Of a stretch of DNA of 64,000 nucleotides, positions 7,762 through 63,896 are shown piece after piece; position 1 is the stretch's first letter; every line of letters begins with the position of its first letter. Source of the DNA: Clostridiales bacterium (GTDB lineage Bacteria; Bacillota; Dehalobacteriia; UBA7702); assembly GCA_040766525.1 (NCBI GenBank), contig JAXGQI010000007.1, forward strand, positions 3,166 through 67,165, written 5' to 3'. The notes beneath the pieces were generated by a model. It saw only the letters and a list, made by a program, of their open reading frames with translations. It was not told where the DNA came from and ran no database searches. Made by a program: the position numbers and the translations under genes.

Positions 7762-7981
7762 ACCCGCAAGCCAACTAACATCGGCTTGCGGGTTTTCGTC
7801 TGCGGGCAATGGCCGATAGCGTCGTCAAACCAAAGCCCCTGACCGCTTGTGTATGTCCGTATACACGGCGCGCCCAGGGCCTTTGTCTTTCCTAGCTCTA
7901 GGCCCTTGACCACAGCCTCTCATCTTGCCGACTTCGTCGACAATCTGACCGCAAGCCAACATTGGCTTGCGGGTTTTCGTC
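7762..7981 (+). repeat. palindromic repeat family, copy A (core 7801-7947) bracketed by a duplicated terminator hairpin
   Basis: The core aligns to the copies at 36.8, 43.5 and 61.3 kb (GCCGATAGCGTyGTCAAACCAAAGCCCCTGACCGC...CCAGGGCCTTTG...CCTAGCTCTAGGCC...GTCGACAATCTG). Flanks 7762-7800 and 7948-7981 are imperfect direct repeats of the hairpin ACC(C)GCAAGCC..GGCTTGCGGGTTTTCGTC. Confidence 0.85.
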
Positions 7982-20291: not shown

Positions 20292-20441
20292 ACCGCTGAG
20301 ACTGCAGATAAAAGCCGATAGCGTTGTCAAATCAAAGCCCCTGGCCGTAATGGTTGTCCATACTGTACTGCCCCAGGAAAAACGGACATTGAAAAGAATC
20401 CCCCAAACGTAGGATAATAAACTTACGAATGGGGGATTGTC

Positions 20442-20744
20442 ATGTCAAAAAGAAGATATACAAAAGTTCAGGAGCTGTTACCGGAAATCAAAGGAATGCT
20501 CGCGGCAGGATGTACCCATAAAGAAATTGCGGCATATTTTCAGCTGCAAGGAGATCGGCCTGTGCATCAGCTGTTAAAAAGAGAAAGAAGGAAGGAAAGA
20601 AAAGCAGAGTTCGGAATTGTACCGCGCCGCCCTGGTCGCCCGAAAAAGGATGCGGCGGAGGAAGAAAAAGAATATAAAATCAAGCGGCTAGAGATGGAAA
20701 ACCGGTTATTGCGGGATTTTCTTCGTGCCGCTGGAAGGAAGTGA
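20442..20744 (+). CDS. IS3-family transposase OrfA (HTH)
   Basis: 100 aa with an HTH plus leucine-zipper-like C-terminus (KIKRLEMENRLLRDFL). It overlaps orfB by 4 nt, and orfB is in the -1 frame. Confidence 0.85.
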   Translation: MSKRRYTKVQELLPEIKGMLAAGCTHKEIAAYFQLQGDRPVHQLLKRERRKERKAEFGIVPRRPGRPKKDAAEEEKEYKIKRLEMENRLLRDFLRAAGRK

Positions 20745-21598
20745 GGCCATCTGTCAAGTATGAAATCATCTATTTCCGCAAAAATCAATATCCGGTAGCT
20801 ACGATGTGCCGCTTCTTTGGCGTATCCCGCAGCGGTTATTACAACCATATACAGCATAGAGGTAAACCGGAGAAAGATGCTGCTTTGTCAAAAATAATTG
20901 CGGAATGTCAACAGCGCTGCGGGAGCACCTATGGATACCGTCGTGTTTGTTTATGGTTAGTGCGAGAAAAGAATTTGCGTCTTAATCCCAAGACGGTACT
21001 TCGTGTGATGAACAAATACGGACTGCTTTCAGAAATTCGCCGTACTAAGAAATATAAGCGCATGGGTCAACAGCTGCACAGATATGAGAACCTGTTAGAT
21101 CGCAACTTTATTGCTACGCGTCCTAATGCTAAATGGGTAACCGATATTTCTTACATTCATACGGCCCAAGGCGTGCTCTATTTGTCTATGATTCGCGATC
21201 TATATGATCATAGCATTGTTGCCTATCAGACCGGGACAAAACAAACCGTAAATCTTGTATTAAAAACGATTATAGCGGCAATGGAGAAAGAAGAAGTCGC
21301 TGCGGAGTTACAGCTCCACAGCGACCAAGGGCTTCAATACACTTCTCTTGGGTATTTTAACCTAACCAAAGAATATGGCATTACGCCATCGATGTCAAGA
21401 CGCGGGAACTGTTATGACAATGCCATGGCGGAAAATTTCTTCTCCATTCTCAAAACGGAGTGTATATATCGGCAGAAAATCAAAACCTTCGATGAAGCTC
21501 GATTTCTTATTGACGAATACATTGATTTCTATAATAATGAGCGTATACAAACAAAAACAAGCCTGACGCCGCTGGAAAAACGACGTCAAGCTGTCTGA
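20741..21598 (+). CDS. IS3-family transposase OrfB (DDE integrase core)
   Basis: WVTDISYI.. (D), ..LHSDQGLQYTS (D), ..GNCYDNAMAENFF (E) rve-type catalytic triad. Confidence 0.9.
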   Translation: MRPSVKYEIIYFRKNQYPVATMCRFFGVSRSGYYNHIQHRGKPEKDAALSKIIAECQQRCGSTYGYRRVCLWLVREKNLRLNPKTVLRVMNKYGLLSEIRRTKKYKRMGQQLHRYENLLDRNFIATRPNAKWVTDISYIHTAQGVLYLSMIRDLYDHSIVAYQTGTKQTVNLVLKTIIAAMEKEEVAAELQLHSDQGLQYTSLGYFNLTKEYGITPSMSRRGNCYDNAMAENFFSILKTECIYRQKIKTFDEARFLIDEYIDFYNNERIQTKTSLTPLEKRRQAV

Positions 21599-21796
21599 TT
21601 TCACGATATTCTATGTTAGGGTCTTCTTTTCCCTGTCCTTTTATTTCGGGGCAGTACAGTCTAGATACGCTGCGCGTCCAGGGACTTTGCTTTTCCTAGC
21701 TCTAGGCCTTTATCTGCAGCCTCTCATCTTGCCGACCTTGTCGACAATCTGGGCCGTGCGGTTAACCGCACGGCCTTTCGACTGTCAATAAAGTGC

Positions 21797-36813: not shown

Positions 36814-36960
36814 GAGACTGCAGATAAAAATCGATAGCATTATCAAACCAAAGCCCCTGACCGCTTCCGTATGTCTATATACGCCACGCGTCCAGGGCTT
36901 TTGTTTTTCCTAGCTCTAGGCTTTTCTCTCCAGTTTCCCATCAGGTCTACAGGATGACCG
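36814..36960 (+). repeat. palindromic repeat family, copy C (3' end diverged)
   Basis: GAGACTGCAGATAAAAATCGATAGCATTATCAAACCAAAGCCCCTGACCGCTTCCGTATGTCTATATACGCCACGCGTCCAGGGCTTTTG..CCTAGCTCTAGGC... Only a short GCAG(A/GG)AGCGC flank similarity is present. Confidence 0.75.
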
Positions 36961-61234: not shown

Positions 61235-61447
61235 AGATCCTCCAAATTTTGGAGGATCTGCTTTGAGACAGCAGACAAAAGCCGATAGCGTTGTCAAACC
61301 AAAGCCTCTGACCGCTTATGTATCTCTATATACACTGCGCGTCCAGGGACTTTGCTTTTCCTGGCTCTAGACCCTTGTCTTCAGCCTCCCATCTTGCCGA
61401 CTTTGTCGACAATCTGAGATCCTCCAAAATTCTGGGGGATCTGCTTT
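61235..61447 (+). repeat. palindromic repeat family, copy E (152-bp core 61265-61416) bracketed by a duplicated 30-bp terminator hairpin
   Basis: AGATCCTCCAAATTTTGGAGGATCTGCTTT (61235-61264) is repeated as AGATCCTCCAAAATTCTGGGGGATCTGCTTT (61417-61447). Only the right copy keeps the long T-tract. Confidence 0.9.
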
Positions 61448-62252: not shown

Positions 62253-62500
62253 GAACGAAAGCCGGAGGGAAGGAGATTTCTTTCCGACTTGATATAGATA
62301 GAGCCGCTTGGAATTTTCCAAACGGCTCCTTAGACAGCAGACAAAAGCCGATAGCGTTGTCAACCCAAAGCCCCTGACCGCTTTCGTATGTTTGTACTGC
62401 CCCAGGAAAAACGGACATTGAAAAGAATCCCCCAAATGGTCATGGTATAATAAACTGGACAGAAAGAAAAGCGCGGAAAGGCGGAAAGGGAGTTCAGTTT

Positions 62501-62794
62501 ATGAAACGAGCAGTATATGACAAGCAATTTAAAATGGCCGCGGTAAAACTGGCACAAGGAACAAATCAGTCGGTTACGCAAACAGCCATTGATCTGGGAA
62601 TCAGCGGCAGCAGTCTGCGTAGATGGATCAACGAATATGATGAATATGGAGAAAGTGCGTTTCCAGGGCATGGGAACGCACTTTTTAACTCTACGTATGA
62701 AATCAAGAAACTACAAAAGCAAATTGATGATTTAAAAATGGAGAACGAAATACTAAAAAAACTCCAGGCCTTCTTGAAAGTAAAGAATGTGTGA
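62501..62794 (+). CDS. IS3-family transposase OrfA
   Basis: HTH (..SVTQTAIDLGISGSSLRRWINEY..) plus a leucine zipper. The A7 slippery run at 62755-61 near its 3' end fits a programmed -1 frameshift into orfB. Confidence 0.9.
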   Translation: MKRAVYDKQFKMAAVKLAQGTNQSVTQTAIDLGISGSSLRRWINEYDEYGESAFPGHGNALFNSTYEIKKLQKQIDDLKMENEILKKLQAFLKVKNV

Positions 62795-63648
62795 GGTTCC
62801 AGTTTCTAAAAGAAAATCAAAAGAAATACAATATTCAGAAGGCCTGTAAAATTTTGAAGATCTCACGCAGCGGTTATTATGATTATCTGAAACGTCGAAA
62901 AAGTAAACGTGCGATTGAAAATGAAGTGCTATCGGAAATGATCGAAGACATTTTCCATGAAAACAAAGGGCGTTATGGTGCAAGGCGTATACAAAAGGTA
63001 TTGGAACAAAAGAATATCAAGGTCAATCCTAAAAGAGTTTCCCGCTTAATGAGTGAACATGGTTTAATTGCAAAAGGGACGCGAAAATTCTATCGGTATC
63101 AGGCAAACAAAAACGCTTATGATGAAAAAGAAAATATCCTTAATCAAGTATTCAAAGCAAATGAAAGAAATCAGATATGGGTCGGCGACATCACATACAT
63201 CCCAACAAAACACGGTTGGCTTTATTTGGCTGTTTTCATTGATATTTTTTCTCGTAAGGTAACGGGATGGGCTATGGATACTAGAGTTCGTGATATATTG
63301 GTTTTATCAGCACTTAATCAGGCCGTTGGCAGAGAACATCCCACAGAGGGATTGATCATTCATACAGACCGGGGATCCCAATATACATCTCAGCGCTTTC
63401 AGTCTATGTGTATTCGTTACGGATTCCGACAAAGTATGAGTCGTAAAGGAAATCCTTATGACAACGCAATTATGGAATCGTTCTATCGTACTTTAAAAAG
63501 AGAGCTTGTTCAGGATGCAAAATATGACAACCCTGAACAAGCTCGCATGGATATCTTTAAATATATTGAGACTTATTACAATACCAAACGTATTCATTCG
63601 GCCCTCAATTGGCTTTCTCCAACTCAATTTGAGGCCCAGTATGTTTAA
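62791..63648 (+). CDS. IS3-family transposase OrfB (DDE)
   Basis: WVGDITYIPT (D), IIHTDRGSQYTS (D), GNPYDNAIMESFY (E). Confidence 0.9.
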   Translation: MRFQFLKENQKKYNIQKACKILKISRSGYYDYLKRRKSKRAIENEVLSEMIEDIFHENKGRYGARRIQKVLEQKNIKVNPKRVSRLMSEHGLIAKGTRKFYRYQANKNAYDEKENILNQVFKANERNQIWVGDITYIPTKHGWLYLAVFIDIFSRKVTGWAMDTRVRDILVLSALNQAVGREHPTEGLIIHTDRGSQYTSQRFQSMCIRYGFRQSMSRKGNPYDNAIMESFYRTLKRELVQDAKYDNPEQARMDIFKYIETYYNTKRIHSALNWLSPTQFEAQYV

Positions 63649-63896
63649 TTAACCTTAATTCTCTGTCCATTTTTTCTTGACCTTTCCAGTTAGGGTCTTC
63701 TTTTCCCTGTCCTTTTATTTCGGGGCAGTACAGTTTAGATACGCCGCGCGTCCAGGGGCTTTGCTTTTCCTAGCTCTTGGCCTTTGTCTTATGTCTCTCA
63801 TCTTGTCGGCTTTGCCGACAAGATGAGGCCGACGTAGATTTGCGCCGGCCTTCATATTGTTTATGATTGATTTGTTTAAGCTGTTTTCATAATAAA

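What the first reader, a model, noticed from the sequence alone, without database searches (positions are those of the whole stretch)
20364..21658. Two very different IS3-family transposases share identical 44-bp left and 44-bp right termini
IS no. 1 (20364-21658) and IS no. 2 (62393-63732) encode OrfA/OrfB proteins that are only distantly related. OrfA starts MSKRRYTKVQELLPEIKG.. in one and MKRAVYDKQFKMAAVKLAQG.. in the other, and the OrfB sequences diverge throughout. Yet both begin with TGTACTGCCCCAGGAAAAACGGACATTGAAAAGAATCCCCCAAA and end with GTTAGGGTCTTCTTTTCCCTGTCCTTTTATTTCGGGGCAGTACA, identical by eye. Ends and transposase normally co-diverge. Identical ends on diverged cores imply recent end exchange or gene conversion, a shared end cassette that different transposase modules have captured, or selection for ends that dictate the common target (the repeat loop). 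A third, degraded right end of the same type lies at 42536-42575.
Basis: seen in the sequence. Interest (0 to 1): 0.6.

Follow-up and report, generated by a model that had tools for sequence, protein, structure and literature searches.

The report
One jumping gene nested inside another's ends
The two insertion sequences share identical ends because the second is a complete, unrelated IS3-family element sitting exactly between the two 44-bp end repeats of the first; its relatives sit in the same place inside the ends of other insertion sequences across many Clostridia.

Summary
IS#1 (20364-21658) and IS#2 (62393-63732) carry identical 44-bp left and 44-bp right termini. Their cores are unrelated at DNA level, OrfB is 33% identical, and OrfA does not align.

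The explanation is nesting, not end exchange. IS#2 is a complete 1252-bp IS3-family element (62437-63688) with its own TG...CA inverted repeats, orfA, an A7 slippery site and orfB. It lies exactly between the two IS#1-type repeats. Relatives of IS#1 have co-diverged versions of these ends, so the ends are native to IS#1.

All four copies of the composite in this genome keep the outer ends. Two sit in the apical loop of a hairpin repeat with 3-bp duplications outside the outer ends. IS#1-type elements use the same kind of target. The composite therefore moves as a unit on IS#1 ends, probably driven by the IS#1 transposase (inferred).

This is not a one-off. In 103 unique flanks of IS#2 relatives from other genomes and metagenomes, 49 carry an IS3-type end with its tip 40-45 nt outside the element. 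The distance is 43-44 nt in 38 of them. About 2 hits per ~50-67 flanks are expected by chance. The outer ends come from at least three IS3 lineages and do not track the core.

I found no description of this inner-edge targeting in the papers I could search. The scan noted a similar case before on other DNA (e1-056850).

The parts
20364..21658 (+). IS#1: autonomous IS3-family element, 1295 bp, the native owner of the shared termini
   Evidence: OrfB scores 294.8 bits against NCBIfam NF033516 (cut-off 160). An identical copy lies on contig C35 and a 92% copy on C20. Relatives with 77-79% identical OrfB carry co-diverged TGTACYGCACC..GGACATTG ends.
20364..20407 (+). IS#1 left terminal inverted repeat (IRL, 44 bp)
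   Evidence: Identical to 62393-62436. IRL and IRR match at 31 of 40 positions.
20442..20744 (+). IS#1 orfA (100 aa)
   Evidence: ORF list. No Pfam or NCBIfam hit.
20741..21598 (+). IS#1 orfB (285 aa, rve DDE domain), in the -1 frame relative to orfA
   Evidence: The two frames overlap by 67 nt and the overlap holds no A-run slippery motif.
21615..21658 (+). IS#1 right terminal inverted repeat (IRR, 44 bp)
   Evidence: Identical to 63689-63732.
62393..63732 (+). Composite element, 1340 bp: IS#1-type IRL, then a complete IS#2-type element, then IS#1-type IRR
   Evidence: Further copies lie on C9 (97%), C34 (92%, left tip truncated) and C18 (at a contig end), all with the outer ends.
62393..62436 (+). 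Outer left end, equal to the IS#1 IRL
62437..63688 (+). Inner IS#2-type element, 1252 bp, a complete IS3-family IS with its own TG...CA inverted repeats
   Evidence: Relatives at ~77% nt align only over IS#2 positions 45-1296. Their conservation stops at TGRWNATGGTATAATAAACTGGACA on the left and at ...TTTTTCTTGACnnnnCCA on the right. Inner IRL and IRR match at 22 of 40 positions, against a shuffle mean of 12.8 (P = 0.0014).
62501..62794 (+). IS#2 orfA (97 aa, HTH_Tnp_1)
62755..62761 (+). A7 slippery run in the orfA/orfB overlap, the probable -1 frameshift site
   Evidence: That this is the frameshift site is inferred from IS3-family knowledge.
62791..63648 (+). IS#2 orfB (285 aa, rve DDE domain)
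   Evidence: 344.6 bits against NF033516. Relatives with 74-89% identity are widespread in Clostridia.
63689..63732 (+). Outer right end, equal to the IS#1 IRR
62390..62392 (.). Left copy of the 3-bp target duplication (GTT) outside the outer ends; the right copy is at 63733-63735
   Evidence: The C9 copy has CTC/CTC.
62331..62392 (+). Left half of the ~150-bp palindromic repeat split by the composite; the right half is at 63733-~63827
   Evidence: Alignment with 26 empty copies of the repeat. The insertion point is the apical loop CGTAT|GTT|TAGATACG.
20298..20363 (+). Left flank of IS#1: left arm of the same repeat fused to a terminator-hairpin arm that also occurs at C4:31592
   Evidence: The flanks of this copy are TAC and GTC, which is not a duplication, so the copy looks recombinant.
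21659..21752 (+). Right flank of IS#1: right half of the ~150-bp palindromic repeat, starting in its apical loop (GTCTAGATACG)
42499..42572 (+). Degraded IS#1-type right end (relic)

Best explanation
IS#2 is a composite. A complete IS3-family element (62437-63688) with its own inverted repeats lies exactly between the two 44-bp terminal repeats of the IS#1-type element, in place of the IS#1 transposase genes. This nesting is shown. The ends are identical because they are IS#1 ends, also shown. The composite transposes as one unit on those outer ends, shown by target duplications outside the outer ends at separate sites. It is most probably driven in trans by the IS#1 transposase, because it lands in the hairpin-loop targets typical of the IS#1 lineage; this step is inferred. 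The inner element belongs to a lineage whose own transposition places it 43-44 bp inside the tips of other IS3-family elements, at the inner edge of their transposase-binding repeat; this is shown statistically and by identical copies in one genome. How the host core is lost is inferred. The conservative route is one insertion at each host end, followed by recombination between the two copies or a deletion.
For: Structure:
- Identity to IS#1 covers exactly 44 bp at each end and stops at the inner TG and CA tips.
- IS#2 relatives at ~77% nt align only to positions 45-1296.
- The inner repeats are conserved across relatives.

Ownership of the ends:
- IS#1-type relatives (OrfB 77-79% identical) carry co-diverged versions of the same ends.
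- The closest IS#2 relatives (88% aa) carry other outer ends or none.

Mobility as a unit:
- The genome holds composite copies on C50, C9, C34 and C18, and no bare IS#2-type copy.
- The 3-bp duplications GTT (C50) and CTC (C9) flank the outer ends.
- Both duplications are the first three loop bases of the same hairpin in a ~150-bp repeat.

Target preference:
- IS#1-type copies on C20, C35 (left flank) and C50 (right flank), and IS#1 relatives L007, L008 and L010, all sit in apical loops of terminator-like hairpins.

Generality:
- 49 of 103 unique flanks of IS#2 relatives carry an IS3-type end pointing outward with its tip 40-45 nt away. The distance is 43-44 nt in 38 of them.
- Shuffles gave 1.8 hits of 50 flanks and 2.5 of 67. 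Reversed orientation gave 1 and 2.
- The outer ends fall into at least three IS3 lineages. One is the end of an autonomous third IS3 element.
- Outer-end identity does not track core identity (Spearman 0.13, Mantel p about 0.09). Cores that are 100% identical carry outer ends only 66-82% alike.

Active targeting:
- Copies encoding the identical OrfB in one assembly (L012, L013, L014) sit in three different host ends. Two of them are simple insertions with the 4-bp duplication ATTT.
- One of these (L012) lies 44 bp inside the right repeat of a still full-length IS#1-like element.
Against: - No experiment or read-level evidence (circle junctions) shows which transposase moves the composite.
- IS3-family transposases are known to prefer acting in cis, which argues against efficient trans-mobilisation.
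- The inner and outer repeats share a GGACA box at positions 21-25 and 16-21 of 40 positions, so the inner element's own transposase might use the outer ends.
- The inner junctions of the composite carry no duplication (AAA versus GTT), so its origin was not a single simple insertion and remains unexplained.
- The genome is a 67%-complete assembly of 52 contigs, so bare IS#2 copies or an 88-bp end-only element could have been missed.
- The IS#1 copy in the window lacks a duplication.
- About half of the flanks of IS#2 relatives show no recognisable IS end.
Confidence: 0.78

Rival explanations
1. The composite is moved by the inner element's own transposase. That transposase cross-recognises the captured IS#1 ends, so IS#2 has in effect acquired a second, outer pair of working ends.
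For: Inner and outer repeats share TG tips, an A-rich stretch and a GGACA box at positions 21-25. IS#2 orfA and orfB are intact in the window copy. IS3-family transposases favour action in cis (established knowledge). In L019's genome no separate host element with the same outer ends was found, though that assembly may be incomplete.
Against: The composite's insertion sites are hairpin apical loops, at the same loop position as IS#1-type copies. Elsewhere the IS#2 lineage lands at inner edges of IS repeats instead. In IS1397 and ISKpn1 target choice follows the transposase (cited in PMC1525189). The terminal 7-11 bases of inner and outer ends differ (TGGTCAT / TGGAAAG versus TGTACTGCCCC).
Confidence: 0.17
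2. Two independent IS3-family elements came to share ends by recent gene conversion or recombinational end exchange, without nesting.
For: The shared ends are 100% identical while the cores are unrelated.
Against: Conversion would replace IS#2's ends, but IS#2's own inverted repeats are still present and intact just inside the shared 44 bp. The boundaries fall exactly on the inner TG and CA tips. The same architecture recurs with many different outer ends in other genomes.
Confidence: 0.03
3. The outer 44 bp are an intrinsic part of the IS#2 family, which would have a double inverted-repeat architecture. Their identity to IS#1 ends reflects common descent.
For: Most IS#2 relatives carry only ~44-bp outer ends and no host transposase. 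Only L012 has one.
Against: Outer ends do not co-vary with the core. Copies encoding the identical OrfB in one assembly (L012-L014), with 100% identical 3' core in L012 and L013, have different outer ends, and two are simple insertions with duplications at the inner ends. The outer ends match autonomous elements of other IS3 lineages. Left and right outer ends are sometimes of different types (L016, L026, L027).
Confidence: 0.02

Closest known systems
Mobile insertion cassettes (MICs) and MITE/TIME-type non-autonomous elements: IS or Tn3-family ends flanking passenger DNA, mobilised in trans (TIMEs: PMC4133298; MICs of IS231 from my own knowledge)
   Same: A pair of IS ends without the cognate transposase gene flanks foreign DNA. 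The unit is found at several sites, with target duplications outside those ends.
   Different: The passenger is a complete, apparently functional IS of the same family, placed base-exactly at the inner edges of both repeats. The same design recurs with ends of several host lineages.
IR-targeting by IS30 and IS911: insertion next to an inverted repeat of a resident copy (PMC9333248; Loot et al. 2002, cited there)
   Same: A copy-out-paste-in element uses a transposase-binding terminal repeat in the target DNA as a landmark for insertion.
   Different: In IS30 and IS911 the incoming end joins next to the tip of the targeted repeat and forms a tip-to-tip IR-IR junction, usually with a copy of the same element. 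Here the insertion is 43-44 bp inside the tip, on the inner side, in elements of other lineages, and it leaves the host repeat intact.
IS1397 and ISKpn1: IS3-family elements that insert into loops of REP/BIME palindromes (PMC1525189)
   Same: The IS#1-type element and the composite riding on its ends insert in the apical loop of hairpins in an abundant intergenic palindromic repeat, or in terminator hairpins, with 3-bp duplications.
   Different: The host phylum (Clostridia) and the target repeat differ. Sequence relationship to IS1397 was not tested. The composite form is not described for those elements.
IS231 insertion into the terminal repeats of Tn4430 in Bacillus thuringiensis (structural association cited in PMC6199540, ref. 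Mahillon 1987; the preference is from my own knowledge)
   Same: One transposable element habitually sits in the terminal repeat of another.
   Different: The families differ (IS4 into Tn3). I know of no replacement of the host core and no mobilisation on the host ends.
   Same: An IS3-family lineage inserts, to the base, at the transposase-binding terminal repeats of another IS.
   Different: The host there is an IS21-family element on an E. coli plasmid. I did not check that note.

Membership tests
IS3 family (IS#1) | DDE (rve) transposase matching the IS3-family model above its curated cut-off | tested here: met
   OrfB scores 294.8 bits against NF033516 (cut-off 160). Pfam rve, rve_2, rve_3 and HTH_21 also hit.
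IS3 family (IS#1) | Two overlapping frames, with orfB in the -1 frame and a slippery motif | tested here: inconclusive
   The -1 arrangement with a 67-nt overlap is present, but there is no A6G or A7 run in the overlap.
IS3 family (IS#1) | Terminal inverted repeats of ~30-45 bp beginning TG and ending CA, with a 3-4 bp target duplication | tested here: met
   TGTACTGCCCC...GGGGCAGTACA, with 31 of 40 positions matching. The C20 copy has the duplication GTC. The window copy itself has none.
IS3 family (inner IS#2-type element) | DDE transposase matching the IS3 model, an OrfA with an HTH domain, and a -1 frame with an A-run | tested here: met
   OrfB scores 344.6 bits against NF033516. OrfA hits HTH_Tnp_1. 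An A7 run lies at 62755-62761 in a 64-nt overlap.
IS3 family (inner IS#2-type element) | Own TG...CA inverted repeats and target duplications at those ends | tested here: met
   Inner repeats match at 22 of 40 positions (P = 0.0014). Relatives L012 and L014 have the 4-bp duplication ATTT at the inner ends. The window copy has no duplication at its inner ends.
Mobile insertion cassette / non-autonomous element mobilised in trans | Ends of an autonomous element present in the same genome, no cognate transposase inside, several copies with duplications outside the ends | tested here: met
   IS#1 is intact on C50 and C35. Composites lie on C50, C9, C34 and C18, with duplications GTT and CTC.
Mobile insertion cassette / non-autonomous element mobilised in trans | Movement depends on the transposase of the autonomous partner | not testable with these tools
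   Inferred only from the shared hairpin-loop target.
IR-targeting as in IS30 / IS911 | Insertion adjacent to the tip of the targeted repeat, forming a tip-to-tip IR-IR junction | tested here: not met
   The host tip points outward and lies 43-44 nt from the inner element's tip. The junction is on the inner side of the host repeat. The definition is taken from PMC9333248.
Hairpin/REP-targeting IS3 elements (IS1397 / ISKpn1 type), for IS#1 | Insertions confined to loops of palindromic units | tested here: met
   Seven reconstructed empty sites fold with the insertion point in the apical loop. The repeat consensus folds with z = -5.1.
Hairpin/REP-targeting IS3 elements (IS1397 / ISKpn1 type), for IS#1 | Sequence relationship to IS1397 or ISKpn1 | not tested
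   No reference sequences of those elements were compared.

The most novel reading that the evidence does not exclude
The IS#2 lineage is a dedicated hunter of IS ends, a parasite of other insertion sequences. Its transpososome reads the transposase-binding repeat of resident IS3-family elements and integrates two helical turns inward. When both host ends are engaged at once, it replaces the host's transposase genes in a single double-ended event. That would explain why the inner junctions carry no duplication. The element thereby disables a competitor and inherits its ends, its target specificity and its mobilisation.
Probability: 0.3. Interest if true: 0.8.

Novelty: new variant of a known kind. 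Interest (0 to 1): 0.6.

Why it matters
The finding resolves an apparent paradox, identical ends on unrelated transposases, with a concrete and checkable structure.

It also points to a wider phenomenon. One IS3-family lineage, widespread in gut and fermenter Clostridia, habitually sits at the inner edge of other elements' terminal repeats and often takes the place of their transposase genes. If targeting and trans-mobilisation are confirmed, this would be:
- a natural route by which IS ends and transposases are re-assorted;
- a case of one IS parasitising and silencing another;
- a new, position-precise kind of target selection in the copy-out-paste-in family.

There is a practical consequence. 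Annotation pipelines that define an IS by its outermost inverted repeats will mis-assign such composites.

Tried and rejected
- I searched 60 related genomes for the 33-nt left terminus with up to 3 mismatches. It occurs only in the window's own genome.
- I searched 14 close relatives with each whole element. The same-genus genome had no match. There were only a distant IS#1-like fragment in G006 and a 73% IS#2 relative in G015.
- I looked for an autonomous host element with L019's outer ends in its own genome. Only the composite itself was found, which is uninformative for an incomplete assembly.
- Rfam has no family for the ~150-bp target repeat. The only hit was a sub-threshold IMES-2 match at 19 bits against a gathering score of 54.7.
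- Loot et al. 2002 (PMC126149) is not held. IS911 IR-targeting is cited second-hand from PMC9333248.
- Three literature searches for nested IS, IS-end targeting or trans-mobilised IS found no description of inner-edge targeting. That shows only that it is not in the held library.
- I rejected an assembly artefact. The composite lies inside a 68-kb contig between matching halves of a split repeat with a duplication, recurs on four contigs at 92-100% identity, and has the same design in independent assemblies.
- I rejected the idea that the shared ends are part of the target repeat. The 26 empty copies of the repeat that I aligned lack them.
- I rejected a simple insertion into an 88-bp end-only element. 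There is no duplication at the inner junctions and no such element in the genome.
Full report
**1. Observation**

IS#1 (20364-21658, 1295 bp) and IS#2 (62393-63732, 1340 bp) begin with the same 44 bases and end with the same 44 bases (equality tested). Between those ends a global alignment shows only background identity, about 35-55% in 50-nt windows. The OrfB proteins are 33% identical. The OrfA proteins do not align. IS#2 OrfA is an HTH_Tnp_1 protein and IS#1 OrfA matches no Pfam family. Both OrfBs pass the NCBIfam IS3-family model, at 294.8 and 344.6 bits against a cut-off of 160. Window ~42499-42572 matches the last 80 nt of IS#1, including the 3' tail of its orfB.

**2. What IS#2 really is**

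Just inside the shared 44 bp, IS#2 has its own inverted repeats:
- TGGTCATGGTATAATAAACTGGACAGAAAG... from 62437;
- ...CTCTGTCCATTTTTTCTTGACCTTTCCA ending at 63688.

These match at 22 of 40 positions, against a shuffle mean of 12.8 (P = 0.0014). Relatives of IS#2 fetched from other assemblies (OrfB 84-85% identical, ~77% at DNA level) align to IS#2 only over positions 45-1296. That is exactly the part between the shared ends. Their conservation stops at the same TG and CA tips.

Relatives of IS#1 (OrfB 77-79% identical) behave differently. They carry co-diverged versions of the shared ends, such as TGTACCGCACCAGCTAAAACGGACATTG... and TGTACTGCACCAAGAAAAACAGGCATTG.... The 44-bp termini are therefore native IS#1 ends. 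IS#2 is a composite of IS#1 IRL (62393-62436), a complete 1252-bp IS3-family element (62437-63688) and IS#1 IRR (63689-63732). The inner element has orfA, an A7 slippery run at 62755-62761 and orfB.

**3. The composite moves as a unit**

The window's genome is a 1.58-Mb, 52-contig assembly that is 67% complete. It holds:
- IS#1-type copies on C50 (the window), C35 (100%) and C20 (92%);
- composite copies on C50, C9 (97%), C34 (92%, left tip truncated) and C18 (cut by a contig end).

Every IS#2-type copy carries the outer IS#1 ends, and none is bare. The C50 composite is flanked by GTT/GTT and the C9 composite by CTC/CTC, in both cases outside the outer ends. Both split copies of an abundant ~150-bp palindromic repeat. 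I aligned 26 empty copies of that repeat. Earlier notes of this scan call it a MITE; I did not re-test that. The duplicated triplet is the first three bases of the apical loop, as in CGTAT|GTT|TAGATACG.

**4. Whose target preference is this?**

IS#1-type copies use the same kind of site:
- the C35 left flank and the C50 right flank lie at the same loop of the same repeat;
- the C20 copy lies in the loop of another hairpin, with duplication GTC;
- IS#1 relatives L007, L008 and L010 from other metagenomes lie in the apical loops of terminator-like hairpins.

The IS#2 lineage elsewhere lands in a different kind of site (section 5). In the IS3-family hairpin hunters IS1397 and ISKpn1, target choice was assigned to the transposase (Wilde et al. 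2003, as cited in PMC1525189). I therefore infer that the IS#1 transposase moves the composite in trans. This is inference, not demonstration. IS3 transposases are known to prefer acting in cis. The inner and outer repeats also share a GGACA box at positions 21-25, so use of the outer ends by the inner element's own transposase stays a live rival.

**5. The nesting is a habit of the lineage**

I anchored the flanks of IS#2 relatives on their inner ends. The relatives came from one scan of species-representative genomes (52 loci), one scan of metagenomes (80 loci) and five earlier loci.

- Of 103 unique 60-nt flanks, 49 carry an IS3-type terminal repeat pointing outward (TG, then 17-22 nt, then a GACA-type box), with its tip 40-45 nt from the inner end. 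The distance is 43 nt in 21 cases and 44 nt in 17.
- Mononucleotide shuffles of the two sets gave 1.8 hits of 50 flanks (maximum 6) and 2.5 of 67 (maximum 8). The reverse orientation gave 1 and 2.
- The pattern was written after I had looked at the first set. The metagenome set is the independent replicate: 31 of 67.
- The outer ends fall into at least three groups: IS#1-like (...AAAACGGACA...), TGAACCGC...GTAGACAG, and TGAAGTGCACCCCAAAAGTTAGACA.
- The third group forms the ends of an autonomous IS3-family element in another genome, whose OrfB is 30-34% identical to both of ours.
- In L034 the host end is an IS#2-type repeat itself.

**6. The outer ends are captured again and again**

Across 28 elements, identity of the last 250 nt of the core does not predict identity of the outer right end (Spearman 0.13, Mantel p about 0.09). 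Cores that are 97-100% identical carry outer ends only 58-86% alike.

The clearest case is one assembly with copies encoding the identical OrfB:
- L012 is a simple insertion with the 4-bp duplication ATTT. It lies 44 bp inside the right repeat of a still full-length IS#1-like element, whose OrfB is 52-68% identical to IS#1's.
- L014 is a simple insertion, also with ATTT, lying 43-44 bp inside another type of end.
- L013 lies between both ends of the third lineage, with no inner duplication.

The inner ends are therefore active, and they aim at the inner edge of IS3-type repeats. The closest relatives of the window's IS#2 (88% aa: L017-L019, L076-L081) carry other outer ends or none. The capture of IS#1 ends is thus specific to this genome's lineage.

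**7. How the host core is lost is not settled**

In the window the inner junctions show AAA on the left and GTT on the right, with no duplication. The same is true of other double-sided composites. A single simple insertion into an end-only element is therefore excluded, and no such 88-bp element exists in the genome.

The conservative route has three steps: an insertion at the inner edge of one host repeat, a local second insertion at the other, and recombination between the two direct copies. An IS-mediated adjacent deletion would serve as well. Composites whose left and right outer ends are of different types (L016, L026, L027) fit recombination between copies in different hosts.

A bolder reading is a single double-ended event, in which each end of the incoming element joins at the inner edge of a different, synapsed host repeat. 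The data do not separate these routes.

**8. Comparison with what is known**

- As a structure, the composite is closest to a mobile insertion cassette or a MITE/TIME-type element with a passenger (PMC4133298). Here the passenger is a whole IS.
- As a targeting behaviour, it resembles IR-targeting by IS30 and IS911. That reaction joins the incoming end next to the tip of the targeted repeat and makes a tip-to-tip junction (PMC9333248). Here the site is on the inner side, 43-44 bp from the tip, so that membership test fails.
- IS#1's own behaviour resembles IS1397 and ISKpn1 (PMC1525189).
- My literature searches found no description of an IS3 lineage that systematically occupies the inner edge of other elements' repeats. 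The library is incomplete, and ISfinder could not be consulted.
- The scan had noted a comparable case on other DNA: an IS3-family element at the transposase-binding repeats of ISEc12 (e1-056850). I did not check it.

**9. Verdict**

The nesting is essentially certain. Movement on the outer ends is well supported. The identity of the acting transposase and the origin of the core replacement are inferred. I rate it a new variant of a known kind, with interest 0.6.

Noticed in passing
window 7812-7932, 36820-36921, 43466-43571, 61271-61401; at least 26 copies across the genome: There is an abundant, highly conserved ~150-bp palindromic repeat. It folds as a long hairpin (z = -5.1) followed by a small terminator-like hairpin. 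It is the preferred landing site of IS#1-type ends. It matches no Rfam family (IMES-2 at 19 bits, below threshold). Earlier scan notes call it a MITE of an IS1182-type transposase.
   Followed up: partly
window 20334-20363 and G000:C4:31592-31622: The IS#1 copy in the window has no target duplication (TAC on the left, GTC on the right). Its left flank is a hybrid of the repeat's left arm and the left arm plus loop of a terminator hairpin that is empty at C4:31592. This suggests recombination between two IS#1 copies. The C35 copy's right flank likewise matches the C20 locus.
   Followed up: partly
window 20397-20441: The IS#1 leader can form a hairpin, AATCCCCCA...TGGGGGATT. It pairs the inner part of the left repeat with the ribosome-binding region just upstream of orfA. 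This is a likely guard against read-through activation.
   Followed up: no
window 20678-20744: The IS#1 orfA/orfB overlap (67 nt, -1 frame) holds no A6G or A7 slippery run, unlike IS#2. How the fusion transposase is made is unclear.
   Followed up: no
G000:C1:42831-42871: A solo relic resembling the IS#1 right end (85% over 41 nt), with no adjacent IS body.
   Followed up: no
G000 C9:23885-25216, C34:15088-16412, C20:17492-18782: The older copies of both elements (92-97%) differ mostly by many single-base insertions and deletions. They are either decaying pseudogenes or carry consensus errors of the assembly.
   Followed up: no
L019 versus L077/L078: The same genomic site, with identical flanks and the same left outer end, holds an IS#2-type element whose 3' core (last 250 nt) is identical, but with a different right outer end. 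The two right ends share only the terminal 13 bases. The outer end is therefore mosaic.
   Followed up: no
L075 (G062:C8:69731-71021); also L013/L014 left flanks and L074: A third IS3-family lineage has one end containing a perfect 13-17-bp hairpin (GCACCCCAAAAGT..ACTTTTGGGGTGC) that overlaps its terminal repeat. Solo copies of this 44-bp hairpin also occur, and IS#2 relatives use them as landing sites.
   Followed up: partly
L034, L036, L041, L053: IS#2-type elements are nested in, or abut, fragments of other IS#2-type elements. In L034 the outer end is an IS#2-type repeat at 43 nt.
   Followed up: no
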